A DNA stretch of 64,000 nucleotides from a virus (lineage: Duplodnaviria; Heunggongvirae; Uroviricota; Caudoviricetes). The stretch's first letter is position 1, and each line of letters starts with the position of its first letter. Both the position numbers and the translations under genes were made by a program. Under the pieces are notes generated by a model. The model made no database searches. It saw nothing but the letters and a program-made list of their open reading frames with translations, and had not been told where the DNA came from. The stretch is from IMG/VR virus record IMGVR_UViG_2693429668_000006; one strand, written 5' to 3'. This document shows positions 20,686 through 59,854 of this stretch, piece after piece.

Positions 20686-21435
20686 TTAATTAGATAGGGG
20701 ATCAATAAACCGCCGTGCTTCTTCCAGTTCTTCTGGAAAGTGGGCGGAAATAAGGCGCTCTGGAACGATTTCCATTAGCCAGATAGCGGAGAAAATTGCG
20801 CGTATGCGCTTACTGCGAGGGATGGTGCGCAAACGCTCCAGAATCCACTCAAAATAGCTTTCCTGAATCGGGTTGAACTGCATGTCTCCCATATGCTTAA
20901 AGCTAACCAGAGAGTCATCCAGACGGGTTGTTGCGCGTCTGGCTAATTTCTCTTCAAATATCTCAATCAGTTCTGGCTGCCACAAATGCTGTGGGCGAGG
21001 CAGCTTGTCCCACAGACGTCGTGCAGCTGCGGAAAGAACAGTGGAGATAAAGTAGTCGTATGAGCAGCAATAGCGATCCGCAAACTGGCGTGCTTTCCAT
21101 AGCGACGTTTTATTAGCAGTCGACAACTCCTGATAAGGCAAGCGTTTTAACCCGGTGGTGAACGGAGCTGTTTCAAAGTGTTCACGACCGTGCGTCAGCA
21201 TGATATTTGAGTACTGACGTTTGTATGCCTCCGTAAACAGACAGGTGGCCATGAGAGGATGCATATCGCGGTAATCAAACCACTTCGTCTCAAACAGTTC
21301 AGCCTCGTCTTTGCAGCGCGACAAACCAATGTTTTCAGCAACCCACTTGTCCATAACAGCGGTATTCCACTCTGTCATGAAGTCGTACTGGTCGTTGTCG
21401 ATGGTATCGAAAAAGATTTGGCTCATGTGGCTCAC
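20686..21435 (-). CDS. hypothetical protein (249 aa)
   Basis: ORF track; promoter-like motif GGTAGGTAGTTACTTACTTATC immediately upstream. Confidence 0.5.
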   Translation of the reverse strand: MSHMSQIFFDTIDNDQYDFMTEWNTAVMDKWVAENIGLSRCKDEAELFETKWFDYRDMHPLMATCLFTEAYKRQYSNIMLTHGREHFETAPFTTGLKRLPYQELSTANKTSLWKARQFADRYCCSYDYFISTVLSAAARRLWDKLPRPQHLWQPELIEIFEEKLARRATTRLDDSLVSFKHMGDMQFNPIQESYFEWILERLRTIPRSKRIRAIFSAIWLMEIVPERLISAHFPEELEEARRFIDPLSN

Positions 21436-21540
21436 CTGGTAGGTAGTTACTTACTTATCACAATGAGCGGATGATAGCGACTGGTGGCAGTTTTTGGAAG
21501 TGGAAACGGAAGGGACTTGTTCTGGTGGGTGTCTTTAAAA

Positions 21541-21599
21541 GACCTGCTTCTGTATATACAAATAATAAGTAACTTATTAAATACATACGGAAGCAGGTC
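21541..21599. promoter_or_regulatory. 59-bp near-perfect palindrome (GACCTGCTTC ... AATAAGTAACTTATT ... GAAGCAGGTC)
   Basis: Outer arms GACCTGCTTC/GAAGCAGGTC and AT-rich palindromic core; near-identical inverted copy at 53656-53714. Confidence 0.55.
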
Positions 21600-21607
21600 A
21601 TAATCTA

Positions 21608-23314
21608 TTAATGATTGAGTATTTTATTAACACGCAGCTTATTAAGTGTTGATTTTGAAGCAACTTCCTCCAAAGCTTCTATTGCTTTATCAGTGATGCT
21701 CTTCTGTTCGTCTGTCGGGTGTTGCATACCCTTGAACTTGAGCATAGTCTCTTCTACTAAATTCAAAGCATCCTGATCACAGGATAATATCCAGTTTACG
21801 TAATCATCTTTAGAAAAACTGTTAAGAATATTCACATCACTATGGTTAAATCTTCCACCAGCTATTTTTTTTATAATTTTATCTAAGTTATAGTCATCTG
21901 GATTTCTATCTTTCAATTTTTTTTCAATTCTGAAACCTAATTCTTCATTTCCGAAGATCTCTACTCGCAAAGAATTAAATGTAGCATACGCATTGTCTTT
22001 ATTAACAAAAGCATCTGCATATGCCTCTATAATATTATTACAATCTCTATCCAATTTGATTAGGACATTTATTAAACCTACGAACTGTCCAATTGGTATA
22101 CGCAACAGACTATCGTTAATTACGCGCTCAATTTGAAAAATAAACTCTGATTCATTATCTTTAAAAGAGTTTCTAAAAACATCCCAAATTTTATAAACCT
22201 CACATAAAACCCTATTATCTCTATATTGTTCATTTTTTTCTTTTATTATATTTAGAATATTGCTTTCAGAAGACACATAACCGTTCTTAAGGTAAAAATC
22301 TATATCATCATCGAAAGCACTTTCTGCTCGTTCATAAATAATATCAAGGCTATTAACAAATGAATATACAGAGTTAACTTCTTCCTTTTCATCTTTATCA
22401 TCTAACATATAGTCGAATGCATGTATATTTTTGATTGACTCCTTAAATGAAGCATAATCAACGCTAGGAACACCAAAATAGTAAACCACTGAAAATAAGA
22501 CCAATCTATTAATAAAACTTTCTCTAACCTTATCCTCTGCTAACTTTAGCACATCTCTAAATATAACTAGAGATGATTTTATTTTATTTAATATTCTAAT
22601 GTTTTTGATGTTTAAATCATTTGCTAGGTTTTTTAACAAAAGAAAATCAGGGTCAGTCTCATAAAAAACTTTTCTTAAGTTTTTCTCAGGCGTGGGATCG
22701 TATTTTATTTCCACATCAATTATTTTTTCTCTATACTCTAAAAACTGTTGTTGTGCAGTTTCTTCATGTAAGTTATCTTCATTTAATATTAGAACAACCT
22801 TGCAATTTTTTCTTCTTGCCAACTCATCAATTACCCCCATAATCTCTTTAATTTCTAGCGCACTACCTTTTCGTTCAATATCATCAATGCAAACCAAATA
22901 ATTATTAACAAATTTATACTCAAGAGATGACAGCAGATTATCAGTTTTGAACCCAAAAAAATCGTTCTTTCCAAAATGTATTAAAAATTTTGACAAGGAG
23001 TTGTATTTCAACCATCCCCAAAACCCATTTCTATAACGAATCATAGTTCGATCCGTTTCAGATAAAATCAGTTCTTTATATTTCTTTTCATTAATTGGTG
23101 TGGCACAATGATAAAGAGCTTTTTTAATGTCTCCAATAGAATTTATTCCAAACAAAGAAACATATGAATATGCATTAAAATCTAATTTTTTAGAATGTTT
23201 AGTATAAAAGCTATTCCAATAATGCGTTTTACCTACTCCCCAATTTCCTTTTATGACAGCAACCCGATGATCTGAGTCCAAAAAATTTTTTAAAAATACT
23301 TCTATCGATTCCAT
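21608..23314 (-). CDS. KAP-family P-loop NTPase
   Basis: 568 aa; KAP-type Walker A VIKGNWGVGKTHYW and Walker B-like LVCIDDIERKG (compare GxWGxGKS and IDDLDR of KAP NTPases); gene body strongly AT-rich. Confidence 0.7.
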   Translation of the reverse strand: MESIEVFLKNFLDSDHRVAVIKGNWGVGKTHYWNSFYTKHSKKLDFNAYSYVSLFGINSIGDIKKALYHCATPINEKKYKELILSETDRTMIRYRNGFWGWLKYNSLSKFLIHFGKNDFFGFKTDNLLSSLEYKFVNNYLVCIDDIERKGSALEIKEIMGVIDELARRKNCKVVLILNEDNLHEETAQQQFLEYREKIIDVEIKYDPTPEKNLRKVFYETDPDFLLLKNLANDLNIKNIRILNKIKSSLVIFRDVLKLAEDKVRESFINRLVLFSVVYYFGVPSVDYASFKESIKNIHAFDYMLDDKDEKEEVNSVYSFVNSLDIIYERAESAFDDDIDFYLKNGYVSSESNILNIIKEKNEQYRDNRVLCEVYKIWDVFRNSFKDNESEFIFQIERVINDSLLRIPIGQFVGLINVLIKLDRDCNNIIEAYADAFVNKDNAYATFNSLRVEIFGNEELGFRIEKKLKDRNPDDYNLDKIIKKIAGGRFNHSDVNILNSFSKDDYVNWILSCDQDALNLVEETMLKFKGMQHPTDEQKSITDKAIEALEEVASKSTLNKLRVNKILNH

Positions 23315-23338
23315 TGGTGTCTATCCTTCAACTCATAT

Positions 23339-23361
23339 ATTGGGCGTAACAAACGCCCAAT
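23339..23361. terminator. hairpin ATTGGGCGT-aacaa-ACGCCCAAT between parG-like gene and KAP NTPase gene
   Basis: Perfect 9-bp stem located 5 nt downstream of the ParG-like stop. Confidence 0.45.
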
Positions 23362-23365
23362 ATAA

Positions 23366-23725
23366 TCACCCTTTCTTCATCAACTCGCGTTTAATTTCAT
23401 CGGTACGCATCGTGACATCGGCAGCTGTGATCGCCTCGTTAAGTTTCACGATGTCCTCGATTTCCTGCGGTGTCTTCTCCGCAAGATGGAAAATAGCAGC
23501 ACGAATCACGTCAGAACGAGTGAACTTCTCGAAGCGAGGGATGAACTTCATCATCTCCAGCAGTTCGAAGTATTCGTCCTCCAGTGACATTGTGCGGCTT
23601 TTAATTTTCTCTTTGCCACGAGTCGGGCGTCCCTGTGGTCTGACTGGTTGGCGCAAAGGAGTTGTGTTCTTAGCCGGTGCATCAGGCTCTTTGCGCTTTG
23701 CTAGGTCACCCATTTTCATGGACAT
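23366..23725 (-). CDS. parG: ParG-like centromere-binding protein (putative ribbon-helix-helix)
   Basis: 119 aa; basic flexible N-terminus then short helical C-terminus; stop/start coupled to ParA gene, as in ParF/ParG type Ib systems. Confidence 0.55.
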   Translation of the reverse strand: MSMKMGDLAKRKEPDAPAKNTTPLRQPVRPQGRPTRGKEKIKSRTMSLEDEYFELLEMMKFIPRFEKFTRSDVIRAAIFHLAEKTPQEIEDIVKLNEAITAADVTMRTDEIKRELMKKG

Positions 23726-24393
23726 TATTCTTCTTCCTCCAGACTCAACAGATAATCTACAAATTCTTCAAACTCGGCTTCCGCCTTTTTGTCGCGCTCG
23801 CTACCGGTCATTTCAAAGATAGAACGACCAGACTCTTCCGCATCATCATAGACGTTGCGGTTATATAGATTGACTGGCGCAGACTCGATGCCAAACGTCT
23901 CAACAATCTCTTTAGCCGCCAGAATGCGAGACACTTGTGATGGCAAAGCCGGGCACTGGTTCATGACCGCGCGGACCTTCACTTTATCGTTTACATTACG
24001 AACATTGTCGATAATAGGATCGATGTCACGCAGAGATTTCAAATCACGACGCTTAGGACGAAGCGGGATAATGATAACGTCGGCCATCAGCATCGCTTGT
24101 CGCTGAATTTCGGAGTCAAAGCCACCAGCATCTACCACTACAAACTCAGCTCTACCCTGAAGCGATTTTAGGTGCTTAATGATGTCATCCTGAACGTATG
24201 CAAAAGGAATCAGCTCAAGGTCTTCGTTCTGTCGACGGTCTTCACACCAGCTTGTTGTCGTGCGCTGAATATCTATATCAGTGATATAAACCTTCTTCTT
24301 CTTTTTGACTTTCAGGCAAACGGCAATTTGCTGGGCAACGGTGGATTTGCCAGGCCCGCCCTTTGTGCCGCCAACCACAAAGATCTTGGTCAT
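23725..24393 (-). CDS. parA: ParA/ParF-type partition ATPase (small type Ib)
   Basis: 222 aa; deviant Walker A GGTKGGPGKST at N-terminus. Confidence 0.8.
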   Translation of the reverse strand: MTKIFVVGGTKGGPGKSTVAQQIAVCLKVKKKKKVYITDIDIQRTTTSWCEDRRQNEDLELIPFAYVQDDIIKHLKSLQGRAEFVVVDAGGFDSEIQRQAMLMADVIIIPLRPKRRDLKSLRDIDPIIDNVRNVNDKVKVRAVMNQCPALPSQVSRILAAKEIVETFGIESAPVNLYNRNVYDDAEESGRSIFEMTGSERDKKAEAEFEEFVDYLLSLEEEE

Positions 24394-24672
24394 TGGAGAG
24401 TTCCCTTTGCGTCTATTATTATCGTCTGAAACAACTTGTTTTCTTATATGTGATATAGCCTAAATGCCTACGGCTACGGTGTAAAGGTTAAATGGTAGGT
24501 TGTGGTTAACAATTGGCAATCATAGCTTGTATTTGTCTGTTGAAAAAAGTAACAATGACCTCTATATTACAAGTACGGTGATATGCCGTACACAATTTGA
24601 TAATGCACACGTAATGGGCTATAGCCTTTTAAAGTAATTTTTGAGTCGAAAACTCAGTTTGAACAGAGGAGA

Positions 24673-24981
24673 TTGATGGCCTTCCTACATCACGGCCATC
24701 AGGAGGAATACATGTCAGCACTAAAAAAGCAGCGCATCGATTTGAGATTAACCGATGACGATAAAAGCATCATCGAGGAAGCTGCCGCAATGTCTAACCA
24801 GAGCATTACTCAGTTTATGGTTAGCAGTGCATCTGAACGTGCCGTGAAAGTTATAGAGCAACACCGTAGACTAGTTCTGAATGAAGAATCCTGGAATCTG
24901 GTTATGGACGCTATAAGCAATCCTCCGGCACCGAACGACAAGCTGAAACGAGCTGCTGATCGTCTGAAAAGCATGGAGTAG
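24673..24981 (+). CDS. tacA: antitoxin, TacA/DUF1778-like (RHH) partner of GNAT toxin
   Basis: 102 aa; RIDLRLTDDDKSIIEEAAAMSNQSITQFMVSSASERA matches the DUF1778 pattern; real start probably the internal ATG at 24712; 7-nt gap to toxin gene. Confidence 0.75.
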   Translation: MMAFLHHGHQEEYMSALKKQRIDLRLTDDDKSIIEEAAAMSNQSITQFMVSSASERAVKVIEQHRRLVLNEESWNLVMDAISNPPAPNDKLKRAADRLKSME

Positions 24982-24988
24982 TTTACTC

Positions 24989-25510
24989 GTGAGCAATACA
25001 ACGATAGAGATTTTCTCTGGAGAGAAAGATTATGATCTAAACGGTTTTGATTGCGGCGAAGAGTCACTAAACGCCTTTTTAGCCAACCACTTAAAAAGGC
25101 AGCATGAGGGAAAAATTCTTCGTGCTTATGTGCTTTGCACTCAAGAAGAAAGGCCAAAAGTGTTAGGATATTACACTTTGTCAGGTAGTTGTTTTGAAAA
25201 GGAGTCCTTACCTTCAAGAAGCAAACAAAAGAAGGTTCCTTATCGGAATGTTCCAAGTGTTACTTTGGGTAGGCTGGCTTTGGACAAGTCCCTTCAAGGT
25301 CAAGGATTTGGCTCAATGCTTGTAACACATGCAATGCGCGTTGTGTACAATGCATCTCTTGCTGTAGGCATTCATGGACTTTTCGTTGAGGCGTTAAATG
25401 ACAAAGCCAAGGCGTTTTATAAAAGTTTAGGCTTTATCCAGCTGGTTGGTAACAACGAGCGTTCTTTGTTCTATCCTACAAAATCTATCGAAAAATTGTT
25501 CGAAGAATAA
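24989..25510 (+). CDS. tacT: GNAT-family acetyltransferase toxin (TacT/AtaT-like)
   Basis: 173 aa; GNAT motif A region LQGQGFGSMLV; immediately follows the DUF1778 antitoxin. Confidence 0.8.
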   Translation: MSNTTIEIFSGEKDYDLNGFDCGEESLNAFLANHLKRQHEGKILRAYVLCTQEERPKVLGYYTLSGSCFEKESLPSRSKQKKVPYRNVPSVTLGRLALDKSLQGQGFGSMLVTHAMRVVYNASLAVGIHGLFVEALNDKAKAFYKSLGFIQLVGNNERSLFYPTKSIEKLFEE

Positions 25511-58860: not shown

Positions 58861-59325
58861 ATGAAGTCTCCCATACTGTTCACTTTCTGTTCTAAAACTA
58901 TCATGAAATACTCGCTTCTCCCTCTACTAACGTTACCAGTGTTGATGCTTGCCGCGTGCCAATCACACCCAATATCAATCCATGACGCCAAACCAGCACC
59001 GCAGGCCAAAGTGTTAAAGTATCAAAGCGCAGCGCCAGCTACGTTGGTGGTAATGAGAGACACAGGTTTTGTAGGAGCTGGATGTGATGCTTCCATTTTC
59101 ATCAACGGCGAAACTGTCGCAAAACTGGCTACAGGCGAAAAAGCGACTTTCCATTTAAATGCCGGAGAATTAATTGTGGGTGCATCTCTTGAAGGTGCAG
59201 GTTTATGTGCTCTAAACCCCGCTCGTCAAGAGCGAGAAACGACTCTGAAGAATGGAGACACAAAAGCGTTCAGGGTGTTTACCAGCAATTCTGGTGACAT
59301 CGACATTCTGCCAACAACTCTGTGA
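58861..59325 (+). CDS. lipoprotein (lipobox LAAC)
   Basis: Signal/lipobox LLPLLTLPVLMLAAC; start may be the internal ATG (MKYSLLP). Confidence 0.55.
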   Translation: MKSPILFTFCSKTIMKYSLLPLLTLPVLMLAACQSHPISIHDAKPAPQAKVLKYQSAAPATLVVMRDTGFVGAGCDASIFINGETVAKLATGEKATFHLNAGELIVGASLEGAGLCALNPARQERETTLKNGDTKAFRVFTSNSGDIDILPTTL

Positions 59326-59329
59326 TGAC

Positions 59330-59854
59330 ATGACAACCAAAGATATTACCTACGGTATCCAAGCTGAACTCTGGCCGCGAGATTACACTAACGTTGAAAA
59401 ACTACTGATGTTCTGGCGCAGAGAACAAATTCCTGTAAGGGTCACTCTCGAAGATGGCCAGGCGTTTTGCATGTACGTTTATGGCCTCATGCCATCTCGT
59501 AACAAAGTTGACCTTTGCCCAGCCCCTTTTGACAAAGAAAATCGTATAAGGCTCCCACTTGAACGCATTAGTACAATTGAATCAGGTGTGGTTGACAGTA
59601 TCGCTCACGATTTCAAAGGTCGACTAACAGTTCACCCTGATTATGTCGATAATCGGCCATCACGCCGCGATTTTTTTGCAATTTGCAACCAAGCCTACAA
59701 AGCAAACAAATCTATAAGGGTGTACATGGCGGATGGCCGTGAAATTGAGGGGGTGTCAGCAGGCGCAGATGCTTGTCAGGTTACACTACGTGTCGAGAAC
59801 GGTAGAAAAATAGTTGTTTTGTTCGATTGGGTTGAACGAATTTTGCCTTTTTGA
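59330..59854 (+). CDS. hypothetical protein (175 aa)
   Basis: ORF-track ORF 59252-59854 trimmed to ATG at 59330 (MTTKDITYG), which begins 5 nt after the upstream stop. Confidence 0.45.
   Translation: MTTKDITYGIQAELWPRDYTNVEKLLMFWRREQIPVRVTLEDGQAFCMYVYGLMPSRNKVDLCPAPFDKENRIRLPLERISTIESGVVDSIAHDFKGRLTVHPDYVDNRPSRRDFFAICNQAYKANKSIRVYMADGREIEGVSAGADACQVTLRVENGRKIVVLFDWVERILPF

What the first reader, a model, noticed from the sequence alone, without database searches (positions are those of the whole stretch)
21608..23314. AT-rich island encoding a KAP-family P-loop NTPase (PifA-like) between replication and partition modules
The 568-aa protein has the KAP-type P-loop (GNWGVGKTHYW) and Walker B (CIDDIERKG). 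The KAP family is named partly after PifA, the F-plasmid protein that excludes phage T7. The gene is far more AT-rich than its neighbours, stands alone between two hairpin/palindrome elements (21541-21599 and 23339-23361), and is adjacent to the plasmid partition genes. That fits a horizontally acquired exclusion or abortive-infection gene carried by a phage-plasmid.
Basis: partly seen in the sequence, partly recalled or inferred. Interest (0 to 1): 0.75.

Follow-up and report, generated by a model that had tools for sequence, protein, structure and literature searches.

The report
KAP ATPase in phage-plasmid defence slot
An SSU5-type phage-plasmid of E. coli carries, in a swap-in slot between its partition and replication genes, a foreign AT-rich gene for a soluble KAP-type ATPase that is very probably an anti-phage gene, though from an untested candidate family and only distantly related to PifA.

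Summary
A 568-aa ORF (21608-23314, minus strand) has 29.5% GC against 47-50% in its neighbours, which is the lowest value anywhere in the window. It carries KAP-type Walker A and Walker B motifs and lies between two real hairpins.

The window is an SSU5-like phage-plasmid. The gene fills a sharply bounded slot (21600-23365) between a conserved backbone hairpin and the stop codon of the small par gene. Relatives carry PD-T4-3 (GIY-YIG) or DUF2971/PDC-S31 in the same slot.

The protein passes Pfam KAP_NTPase weakly (26 bits). It matches only the PADLOC candidate PDC-S49 and the unannotated PHROG 4740. It does not match PifA, QatA or Tmn models, and its similarity to F-plasmid PifA is limited to the P-loop domain.

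It has no transmembrane helices and no recognisable effector. The C-terminal 310 aa fold as an α-solenoid, and this is the fast-diverging part.

Homologues sit in other prophage cargo sites. In P2-like prophages they lie between gpA and the portal gene, next to PD-T4-10 or PD-Lambda-5. In Pseudomonas-type prophages they lie beside the S24 repressor.

Verdict: a probable single-gene, prophage-encoded defence ATPase. It is a new member of a catalogued but unvalidated family, and its mechanism is unknown. "PifA-like" is true only at superfamily level.

The parts
21608..23314 (-). Complete KAP-clade NTPase gene (568 aa), the only gene in the slot
   Evidence: ORF list. Pfam KAP_NTPase E 6.6e-6, 26 bits against cutoff 20. 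PADLOC PDC-S49 E 2.1e-21. PHROG 4740, 553 bits, full length, function unknown. GC 0.295.
22541..23314 (-). N-terminal KAP/AAA+-like NTPase domain (aa 1-258), including a soluble helical insert (aa 56-135) where membrane KAPs carry TM helices
   Evidence: The Pfam match covers aa 18-258. The AF2 model has strands at 18-23, 48-53, 139-144, 172-178 and 201-204, with pLDDT above 90 outside aa 98-123. Foldseek hits are RFC, ORC/Cdc6, MuB, TnsC, Avs4 and NOD2. No TM segment is predicted; the maximum KD19 is 1.6.
23225..23248 (-). Walker A motif, G23-N-W-G-V-G-K-T30
   Evidence: G23, W25, G26, G28, K29 and T30 are invariant in 47 homologues.
22871..22900 (-). Walker B motif, Y139-LVCIDDIER148 (hhhCxDDxER)
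   Evidence: Y139, C142, D144, D145, E147 and R148 are invariant. Also invariant are N178 (sensor-1 position after strand 172-178), Y194-R195-E196-K197 and R240.
21611..22540 (-). C-terminal all-helical alpha-solenoid domain (aa 259-568); proposed sensor or specificity domain with no recognisable enzymatic effector
23336..23364 (.). Short perfect hairpin (12-bp stem, 5-nt loop) abutting the parB-like stop codon, 22 nt upstream of the KAP start; part of the cassette
   Evidence: dG -18.3, z -4.8. It lies inside the segment that differs between cargo types. Most other cargo variants have their own, different hairpin at this position; the Salmonella, Citrobacter and Klebsiella ones have T-runs. 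There is no U-tract here, so it is not a canonical terminator.
21541..21599 (.). Long imperfect hairpin followed (on the minus strand) by UUUUAAAG; conserved backbone element that marks the left edge of the slot and is probably the terminator for whatever cargo is present
   Evidence: dG -28.3, z -7.6. It is conserved in 8 SSU5-like elements from 4 genera whatever the cargo. The 15-bp basal stem is kept with only wobble-compatible changes, and no compensatory pairs are seen.
21600..23365 (.). The exchangeable cargo slot (hotspot), about 1.77 kb here
   Evidence: Backbone homology to Cyrano, PhiR41_1 and SSU5 stops at 21598-21605 and resumes at 23365-23370. GC is 0.297.
23366..24393 (-). Right flank: parA (23725-24393) and its 119-aa partner (23366-23725), same strand as and upstream of the KAP gene
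   Evidence: NCBIfam ParA_partition E 1.9e-33, 115.7 bits, below the curated cutoff of 180. The 119-aa protein is PHROG 5111, function unknown. The only sigma-70-like sites on this strand upstream of the KAP gene are at 24492-24546.
20686..21435 (-). Left flank: conserved 249-aa backbone ORF heading the helicase-primase module
   Evidence: PHROG 2500, function unknown. It is 98% aa identical in the E. coli relative and 85-89% in Salmonella, Citrobacter and Klebsiella.

Best explanation
The gene is a single-gene anti-phage (superinfection-exclusion) module carried as exchangeable cargo in a defence hotspot of an SSU5-type phage-plasmid. The following points are shown. It is a soluble KAP-clade AAA+/STAND-like ATPase with an intact catalytic set, fused to a roughly 310-aa alpha-solenoid. 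It has no TM helices, no recognisable enzymatic effector and no conserved partner gene. It belongs to a large family of uniform length (PADLOC candidate PDC-S49, PHROG 4740). Its slot alternatively holds PD-T4-3 or DUF2971/PDC-S31. The proposed mechanism is inferred. The gene would be transcribed at a low level in the plasmid (lysogenic) state by read-through from the par promoter across the short hairpin. The long backbone hairpin would terminate that transcript. The variable C-terminal solenoid would bind a protein of an infecting phage. Binding would switch the NTPase into an ATP-dependent oligomeric or active state. That state would block the infection itself: by sequestering or remodelling the bound phage protein, by draining ATP, or, as with PifA, by disturbing the membrane. 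Which of these outputs applies is unknown.
For: KAP identity rests. Family size and uniform length: 1659 representative clusters at E<=1e-30, and nearly all of the 150 best listed are 511-607 aa matched over almost the whole profile. PADLOC matches PDC-S49 only. Hotspot: exact shared boundaries. Alternative cargo is PD-T4-3 (E 1.6e-23) or PDC-S31/DUF2971 (E 3e-41). In PLSDB, 23 records hold KAP, 26 DUF2971 and about 135 PD-T4-3, while 196 records carry the left flank. Foreign origin: GC 0.295, and about 0.30 for the alleles in all four host genera. KAP dS between two E. coli elements is 0.58, against 0.04-0.14 for flanking genes. Diversification: dN 0.13 against 0-0.007 for flanks, dN/dS 0.22 against 0-0.10, with the C-terminal third most divergent. 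Independent contexts: P2-like prophages carry it between gpA and portal/terminase next to PD-T4-10 (E 4e-74 and 1.7e-168) or PD-Lambda-5 (E 1.5e-168). Pseudomonas-type prophages carry it beside the S24 repressor. Its GC is always 9-21 points below the flanks. It is dispensable for the element, since most relatives lack it. Precedent: other KAP NTPases with uncharacterised C-terminal regions protect E. faecalis in a Walker-B-dependent way (PMC12632615), and PifA excludes T7 (PMC13001434).
Against: No phenotype exists for this family: 'PDC-S49' returns no paper, and the family is a PADLOC candidate, not a validated system. The PDC-S49 HMM aligns only to aa 3-347. No effector domain, toxin or partner gene was found, so the output step is conjecture. 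dN/dS stays below 1 everywhere, with a maximum of 0.4. No promoter was found immediately upstream, and the short hairpin could instead terminate par transcription and leave the gene silent. The gene is rare, found in 28 of 5426 complete E. coli genomes. One chromosomal homologue (Pragia) sits alone among housekeeping genes.
Confidence: 0.65

Rival explanations
1. The gene is an inter-element competition gene rather than an anti-phage gene. The ATPase would act against rival plasmids or phage-plasmids (entry, replication or partition of a competitor), or stabilise its carrier as an addiction-like function.
For: It lies directly downstream of parAB, on the same strand and probably in the same transcript. 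A GNAT/TacA-type toxin-antitoxin pair sits on the other side of par. The RADS preprint notes that phage restriction is probably not PifA's primary function. Allelic turnover would also fit competition between related elements.
Against: Homologues occur in integrated P2-like and lambda-like prophages and as solitary chromosomal genes with no plasmid functions nearby. The alternative occupants of the slot match anti-phage models (PD-T4-3, PDC-S31). No antitoxin-like partner is present.
Confidence: 0.15
2. The gene is a housekeeping accessory of the phage-plasmid: an ATPase that assists partition or replication initiation, as its position between the par and helicase/primase modules might suggest.
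For: Its position. The structural neighbours of the NTPase domain are ORC/Cdc6, DnaA, RFC, MuB and TnsC. A homologue occupies the same slot in E. coli, Salmonella, Citrobacter and Klebsiella elements.
Against: About 88% of E. coli relatives replace it with unrelated genes at identical boundaries. It is compositionally foreign. It diverges 20- to 100-fold faster in dN than the par and rep genes. Family members are found outside plasmids. The structural matches are generic AAA+ folds with TM-score at most 0.3.
Confidence: 0.05
3. The gene is a counter-defence (anti-defence) or host-takeover gene that protects the phage-plasmid from host immunity. Phage hotspots carry such genes as well as defence genes.
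For: Hotspot cargo in temperate phages can be either defence or anti-defence (established knowledge). SSU5-group elements carry anti-defence genes such as Rad (bioRxiv 10.1101/2025.09.12.675607).
Against: It is a large ATPase of 570 aa, a size typical of sensors rather than inhibitors. PADLOC derives its candidates from embedding in defence loci (PMC12881386). Solitary chromosomal copies exist. Its neighbours in P2-like prophages are defence systems.
Confidence: 0.07

Closest known systems
PADLOC candidate system PDC-S49 (PADLOC-DB v2.0.0)
   Same: It is the only PADLOC family matched (PDLC05031, E 2.1e-21; also PDLC05029 and PDLC05030). Homologues from P2-like and Pseudomonas-type prophages match it too. 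It is a single gene of about 570-620 aa.
   Different: The match covers only aa 3-347 of a 624-position profile, so the C-terminal solenoid is not shared at HMM level. PDC-S49 is a candidate without published validation.
PifA of the F plasmid (KAP NTPase that excludes T7)
   Same: Both pass Pfam KAP_NTPase. Both are plasmid-borne and lack TM helices (PMC13001434). Both have large C-terminal regions with no annotated domain.
   Different: PifA scores 148 bits on KAP_NTPase against 26 here. The PADLOC PifA model gives 963 bits for PifA and no listing here. BLASTP gives E 0.14, and hhalign gives 45% probability over aa 2-180 only. The proteins are 741 and 568 aa. PifA sits in the pifC-pifA operon, whereas this gene sits in a par-rep slot.
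EF_KAP and metagenomic KAP NTPases from the RADS study (bioRxiv 10.1101/2025.10.07.681051)
   Same: Each has a KAP NTPase followed by a roughly 300-aa C-terminal region with no known domain. Each is a single gene on a mobile element. Defence is shown there to depend on Walker B.
   Different: EF_KAP has two N-terminal TM helices and comes from Firmicutes. The protein here is soluble.
Tmn (YobI-family transmembrane NTPase) and QatA (KAP component of QatABCD)
   Same: Both are P-loop NTPases of anti-phage systems. Tmn raises ATP turnover after binding a phage protein (PMC13001434, abstract).
   Different: Tmn has two TM helices inside the P-loop domain and belongs to a different family. QatA works with three partner proteins. 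Neither PADLOC model lists this protein at E<=1, whereas PifA does hit QatA models.
STAND/Avs anti-phage NTPases
   Same: Both combine an NTPase switch with a helical-repeat C-terminal domain. Avs4, NOD2 and a TPR-STAND are among the fold neighbours. There is a weak nSTAND3 hit (E 7.6e-4, below cutoff).
   Different: There is no effector domain of any kind (nuclease, protease, TIR and so on). The protein is much shorter, and its motifs are KAP-type.
Defence hotspots of temperate phages
   Same: A fixed site is bounded by conserved core genes, holds mutually exclusive low-GC cargo and mostly carries defence genes. Family members actually sit in the P2-type gpA-portal site.
   Different: Here the site is between the par operon and the replication module of an extrachromosomal phage-plasmid. 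It is bounded by a conserved hairpin and a stop codon. I found no description of this slot in the papers searched.

Membership tests
KAP P-loop NTPase (Pfam PF07693) | Score above the Pfam gathering threshold | tested here: met
   26.0 bits against a cutoff of 20, E 6.6e-6, aa 18-258 on profile positions 22-282 of 293. The pass is marginal. Homologues carry precomputed PF07693.
KAP P-loop NTPase (Pfam PF07693) | KAP-type motifs: Walker A GxWGxGK[ST], Walker B hhhhDDxxR, and a downstream Y-x-E-K-h-h motif | tested here: met
   G23xWGVGKT30, C142xDDxER148 and Y194REK197 are invariant in 47 sequences. They align with PifA's GAWGSGKT, MDDLDR and YLQKII.
KAP P-loop NTPase (Pfam PF07693) | Transmembrane helices associated with the P-loop domain (typical of membrane KAPs but absent in PifA) | tested here: not met
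   Maximum Kyte-Doolittle 19-residue mean is 1.6, with no segment above it. The insert at aa 56-135 has a maximum 11-residue mean of 0.46. This feature is not obligatory for the family (PMC13001434).
PifA family | Match to a PifA-specific profile | tested here: not met
   PADLOC PifA (PDLC02361) scores 963 bits on F PifA as a positive control. It is not listed for this protein at E<=1.
PifA family | Full-length similarity including the C-terminal region | tested here: not met
   BLASTP best E is 0.14, with 23% identity over the NTPase domain only. hhalign of the family profile against PifA gives 45% probability, E 2.2e-4, aa 2-180 only.
PifA family | pifC-pifA operon context | tested here: not met
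   F plasmid: pifC lies immediately upstream of pifA. Here the upstream genes are parA and a 119-aa partner.
PifA family | Exclusion of T7 triggered by gp1.2/gp10, with membrane leakage | not testable with these tools
   This requires infection assays.
PADLOC PDC-S49 | Match to PDC-S49 HMMs as a stand-alone gene | tested here: met
   E 2.1e-21, 6.3e-15 and 7.6e-13 for the three models. The slot contains no other gene. Coverage is limited to aa 3-347.
PADLOC PDC-S49 | Demonstrated anti-phage activity | not testable with these tools
   No paper holds the term 'PDC-S49'. The PDC candidates tested in PMC12881386 do not include it.
Tmn / YobI NTPases | Two TM helices inserted within the P-loop domain, and a profile match | tested here: not met
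   No TM segment. No Tmn model is listed by PADLOC at E<=1.
STAND / Avs | Tripartite architecture with a dedicated effector domain | tested here: not met
STAND / Avs | STAND-type NTPase profile (NACHT, NB-ARC, nSTAND) | tested here: inconclusive
   nSTAND3 scores 19.6 bits against a cutoff of 27.2, over aa 15-67 only. Avs4, NOD2 and a TPR-STAND are among weak fold neighbours with TM about 0.2.
Mobile-element defence hotspot cargo | Mutually exclusive alternative cargo between identical conserved boundaries | tested here: met
   Breakpoints are at 21598-21605 and 23365-23370 against Cyrano, PhiR41_1 and SSU5. PLSDB record counts are KAP 23, DUF2971 26 and PD-T4-3 about 135, while 196 records carry the left flank.
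Mobile-element defence hotspot cargo | Alternative cargo are recognised defence genes | tested here: met
   The PhiR41_1 cargo matches PD-T4-3, E 1.6e-23, with a GIY-YIG domain. The Cyrano and SSU5 cargo match PDC-S31/DUF2971, a candidate only. DefenseFinder-based detection of PD-T4-3 in E. coli/Shigella SSU5-group elements is reported in bioRxiv 10.1101/2025.09.12.675607.

The most novel reading that the evidence does not exclude
This family may be a mechanistically new kind of one-protein immune sensor: a soluble KAP ATPase with only an alpha-solenoid attached and no effector domain. The ATPase cycle itself would be the antiviral output, for example ATP-driven capture or disassembly of a phage protein complex, or trigger-dependent ATP drain. 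New specificities would arise by swapping the solenoid through intragenic recombination. The par-rep slot of SSU5-type phage-plasmids would then be a previously undescribed defence hotspot. That would explain why DefenseFinder reports 'no defence system' in some epidemic Shigella and E. coli phage-plasmids.
Probability: 0.25. Interest if true: 0.7.

Novelty: new member of a known kind. Interest (0 to 1): 0.45.

Why it matters
SSU5-type phage-plasmids are common in clinical E. coli, Shigella, Salmonella and Klebsiella. This work identifies one fixed slot in them that carries interchangeable anti-phage cargo, which gives a simple marker for typing them. It also predicts which phages, including therapeutic ones, their hosts will resist.

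The KAP gene is a large family with no tested member (1659 representative clusters at E<=1e-30) and no recognisable effector. A positive phage-challenge result would validate PADLOC PDC-S49. It would also provide a tractable soluble model for how KAP NTPases, including the long-unresolved PifA, stop phage.

If the result were negative, the gene would still be an example of hotspot cargo whose function is not defence.

Tried and rejected
- **PifA membership** was rejected. There is no PifA-model hit, although the positive control works, and only NTPase-domain similarity exists.
- **Membrane KAP or Tmn-like architecture** was rejected because there is no TM segment.
- **Two-gene system** was rejected. 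The slot holds one gene, and neighbours differ between contexts.
- **Partition or replication accessory role** was rejected on dispensability and evolutionary rate.
- **Structured RNA in the slot** was not found. Rfam gives only sub-threshold chance hits.
- **The long hairpin as part of the island** was rejected, because it is backbone. Covariation support for it as an RNA was sought, but no compensatory pairs were found.
- **A promoter directly upstream of the gene** was not found by the consensus scan.
- **Published validation** was sought under the terms PDC-S49, KAP NTPase with anti-phage, DefensePredictor with KAP, and KAP family P-loop with prophage. Nothing was found for this family.
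- **NCBIfam** has no model for the protein.
Full report
**1. Observation**

The ORF at 21608-23314 (minus strand) is real, intact and 568 aa long. GNWGVGKTHYW lies at aa 23-33 and CIDDIERKG at aa 142-150.

Its GC content is 0.295 and its GC3 is 0.239. The primase, helicase, 249-aa ORF, parB-like and parA genes around it have GC 0.47-0.50 and GC3 0.46-0.57. It is the lowest-GC 1707-bp stretch of the whole 64-kb window (mean 0.456, sd 0.041).

Both palindromes fold far better than shuffled sequence:
- The 21541-21599 hairpin has dG -28.3 kcal/mol and z -7.6.
- The 23336-23364 hairpin has a 12-bp stem, dG -18.3 and z -4.8.

**2. What the replicon is, and what the island is**

The region is 100% identical to plasmid pTIC (MF554642.1, 113 kb) and 99-100% identical to several E. 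coli plasmids of about 110 kb. Its flanks match the phages Cyrano, PhiR41_1, CMS-2020a and, at about 80-86%, Salmonella phage SSU5. The window is therefore an SSU5-type phage-plasmid.

Pairwise BLAST against relatives that lack the gene shows where backbone homology breaks. It stops at window position 21598-21605 and resumes at 23365-23370.

- The left edge is the end of the long hairpin. That hairpin is conserved in eight elements from Escherichia, Salmonella, Citrobacter and Klebsiella whatever lies next to it.
- The right edge is the stop codon of the 119-aa gene that follows parA.

The long hairpin is thus backbone. The short hairpin is part of the cassette. Most other cargo variants examined have their own, unrelated hairpin in the same position right after that stop codon.

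**3. The slot is a cargo hotspot, and the alternatives are defence genes**

| Element | Cargo in the slot | Family match |
|---|---|---|
| PhiR41_1 | 255-aa GIY-YIG protein, opposite strand | PADLOC PD-T4-3, E 1.6e-23 |
| Cyrano | DUF2971 protein | PADLOC candidate PDC-S31, E 3e-41 |
| SSU5 | DUF2971 protein plus three small ORFs | PDC-S31, E 2e-33 |

In PLSDB, 196 records carry the left flank. Of the cargo types, 23 records carry the KAP gene, 26 the Cyrano-type DUF2971 cassette and about 135 the PD-T4-3 cassette.

Among complete E. coli genomes, 28 of 5426 have the KAP gene. It is always on a plasmid, nearly all of about 110 kb, and never on the chromosome.

A recent survey reports PD-T4-3 in E. 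coli and Shigella SSU5-group elements but does not describe the slot or the KAP gene (bioRxiv 10.1101/2025.09.12.675607).

**4. The same slot holds divergent KAP alleles in four genera**

| Host | aa identity to the window protein |
|---|---|
| E. coli, second allele | 76-77% |
| Salmonella | 44% |
| Citrobacter | 42% |
| Klebsiella | 39-40% |

All sit between the parB-like gene and the 249-aa ORF, and all have about 30% GC.

Between the window and the second E. coli allele, the flanking genes differ by dN 0-0.007 and dS 0.04-0.14. The KAP gene differs by dN 0.13 and dS 0.58, giving dN/dS 0.22 against 0-0.10. The alleles are therefore much older than the backbones that carry them, which indicates replacement by recombination.

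Divergence is strongly polar. Residues 61-150 are 98-100% identical with dS of about 0.13-0.16. Residues 365-568 are 52-60% identical with dS 0.66-1.55 and dN/dS up to 0.4. This mosaic pattern suggests that the C-terminal domain is exchanged or diversified separately. That reading is an inference; no formal recombination test was run.

**5. What the protein is**

*Family matches.* Pfam KAP_NTPase is passed, but only just (26 bits against a cutoff of 20, aa 18-258). NCBIfam has nothing. PHROGs places the protein full-length in phrog_4740, which has no known function. PADLOC matches only candidate PDC-S49 (E 2e-21, aa 3-347).

*Family size.* A database search found 964 relatives. A profile search of representative clusters found 1659 at E<=1e-30. 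Nearly all of the 150 best listed are 511-607 aa long and match over almost the whole profile. This is a large family with one fixed architecture. Named members come from Shewanella, Pragia, Oleispira, Vreelandella, Pseudomonas and Desulfobacterales.

*Invariant residues in 47 diverse members.*
- Walker A: G23, W25, G26, G28, K29, T30.
- Walker B: C142, D144, D145, E147, R148.
- N178, at the end of strand 172-178, which is the sensor-1 position.
- Y194-R195-E196-K197, then R240 and K244.
- In the C-terminal part, only G345, W508, N558 and R561.

Assigning R195 and R240 as arginine finger and sensor 2 is my inference from their positions in the model. It was not tested.

*Structure.* The AF2 model is confident (pLDDT 85). 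It shows an AAA+-like core, a helical insert between Walker A and Walker B that is disordered at aa 98-123, and an all-helical C-terminal half. Structural neighbours of the whole model are generic AAA+/STAND proteins: RFC, ORC/Cdc6, MuB, TnsC, Avs4 and NOD2. TM-scores are at most 0.3.

No TM helix is predicted; the maximum 19-residue hydropathy is 1.6. The insert where membrane KAPs carry their helices is not hydrophobic, although aa 96-125 are 30% aromatic.

The protein is therefore a soluble KAP ATPase joined to a solenoid, with no recognisable effector.

**6. Relation to PifA**

F-plasmid PifA was retrieved (741 aa, downstream of pifC).

| Test | F PifA | Window protein |
|---|---|---|
| Pfam KAP_NTPase | 148 bits | 26 bits |
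| PADLOC PifA model | 963 bits | not listed at E<=1 |
| PADLOC QatA models | weak hits | not listed |
| PADLOC PDC-S20 models | weak hits | not listed |

BLASTP between the two proteins gives E 0.14, with 23% identity across the NTPase domain. Profile-to-sequence hhalign gives 45% probability over aa 2-180 only.

The two proteins share the KAP P-loop domain and nothing else. "PifA-like" is correct at superfamily level and wrong at family level.

**7. Independent contexts**

- In IMG/VR, non-SSU5 relatives (27-32% identical) lie in P2-like prophages between the replication gene gpA (PF05840) and the portal/terminase genes. They sit directly next to PD-T4-10 A+B (E 4e-74 and 1.7e-168) or PD-Lambda-5 A+B (E 1.5e-168 and 1e-122).
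- In my knowledge of P2, this is the tin/old cargo site described as a defence hotspot by Rousset et al. 2022.
- In Pseudomonas-type prophages the gene lies beside the S24 (cI/LexA-like) repressor.
- In Oleispira it lies near IS66 and T5orf172 genes.
- In Pragia it is a solitary insert between housekeeping genes.
- In all 12 viral loci examined, its GC is 9-21 points below the flanks.
- No partner gene is conserved across contexts, so it acts as a single-gene unit.

**8. Expression (inferred)**

parA, the 119-aa gene and the KAP gene are co-oriented. The only sigma-70-like sites upstream on that strand are at 24492-24546, ahead of parA.

The 51-bp spacer holds the short hairpin and an AAGGA Shine-Dalgarno sequence 9 nt before the ATG. 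The hairpin has no U-tract.

I therefore propose attenuated read-through from the par promoter, which would give low expression in the plasmid state. The long hairpin followed by UUUUAAAG would terminate the transcript. An alternative is that the short hairpin ends par transcription and the gene is poorly expressed.

**9. Mechanism**

*Shown:* the anatomy, the intact catalytic motifs, cargo behaviour, hotspot co-occupancy and the diversifying C-terminus.

*Inferred:* the solenoid senses a phage protein, and the NTPase switches or oligomerises. The block is then delivered without a dedicated effector. Precedents bracket the possibilities:
- PifA causes membrane permeability lesions in T7 infection (PMC13001434).
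- Tmn raises ATP turnover on binding T2 RIIB (PMC13001434 abstract).
- Enterococcal KAP proteins protect without abortive infection and need Walker B (PMC12632615).

I put about 0.65 on "anti-phage gene". I put no more than 0.25 on any specific output.

**10. Novelty and score**

KAP NTPases in phage exclusion are known (PifA, QatA and the 2025 RADS preprint). This family is already listed as a PADLOC candidate and as a PHROG. The finding is therefore a new member of a known kind.

Three things seem to be new:
- No member of the family has been validated.
- The soluble, effector-less architecture.
- The definition of the par-rep slot of SSU5-type phage-plasmids as a three-way cargo hotspot with exact boundaries.

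Interest is 0.45.

Noticed in passing
window 59252-59854 (+): A 200-aa ORF in a low-GC patch (about 0.37) matches Pfam Flag1_repress (FljA-like repressor of phase-1 flagellin) at 282 bits, E 2.5e-84. No flagellin gene was seen among the adjacent ORFs checked; the upstream 519-aa ORF is a DEAD/ResIII helicase. A phage-plasmid that may switch off host flagellin could change motility, H antigen or sensitivity to flagellotropic phages.
   Followed up: partly
window 24673-25510 (+): A TacA-like antitoxin (PF08681, E 8.6e-26) and a GNAT acetyltransferase toxin (a KacAT/TacAT-type TA pair) lie just beyond parA. The pair is present in Cyrano and some KAP-carrying relatives. In PhiR41_1 and SSU5 unrelated genes take its place. 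This indicates a second variable slot on the other side of the par operon.
   Followed up: partly
window 7033-8136 (-) and the surrounding low-GC patch, about 7750-8500: A 367-aa tyrosine recombinase (Phage_integrase, E 2.9e-10) sits in another AT-rich patch, next to a 442-aa ORF (8732-10060) with no Pfam or PADLOC match.
   Followed up: no
window 21436-21540 (backbone between the long hairpin and the 249-aa ORF): This non-coding stretch is highly conserved (CCCTTCCGTTTCCACTTCCAAAAAC...CCAGTCGCTATCAT...TAAGTAAGTAACTACCTA) and nearly invariant across four genera. It is more conserved than the neighbouring coding sequence, so it may hold the promoter or operator of the replication module, or an origin-related site.
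   Followed up: no
L002 (phage Cyrano) 3921-4280; equivalent to window 23366-23725: The 119-aa gene after parA is annotated 'RelE/ParE putative toxin' in Cyrano. Here it has no Pfam or toxin match, only PHROG 5111 and weak sub-threshold NCBIfam hits. By position it is more likely the centromere-binding partner of the small ParA, so the annotation is probably wrong.
   Followed up: partly
Related proteins P0007, P0013, P0014, P0027 (E. coli/Shigella KAP allele 2): The second allele is very common in Shigella sonnei assemblies on contigs of about 109 kb; P0007 alone was seen on 928 contigs. A surveillance preprint reports 'no detected defence systems' (DefenseFinder) in the epidemic S. sonnei pWPMR2-like SSU5 phage-plasmids. 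The KAP gene may be what fills the slot there. The identity of those contigs with pWPMR2 was not verified.
   Followed up: no
L031 and L035 3940-5669; L028 4042-5663: In P2-like prophages the genes just upstream of the KAP homologue are PD-T4-10-like pairs. The L031/L035 version is highly divergent (A: E 1e-11; B: E 1.8e-5, DUF6575 plus DUF7226). It may be a distant variant of that system.
   Followed up: no
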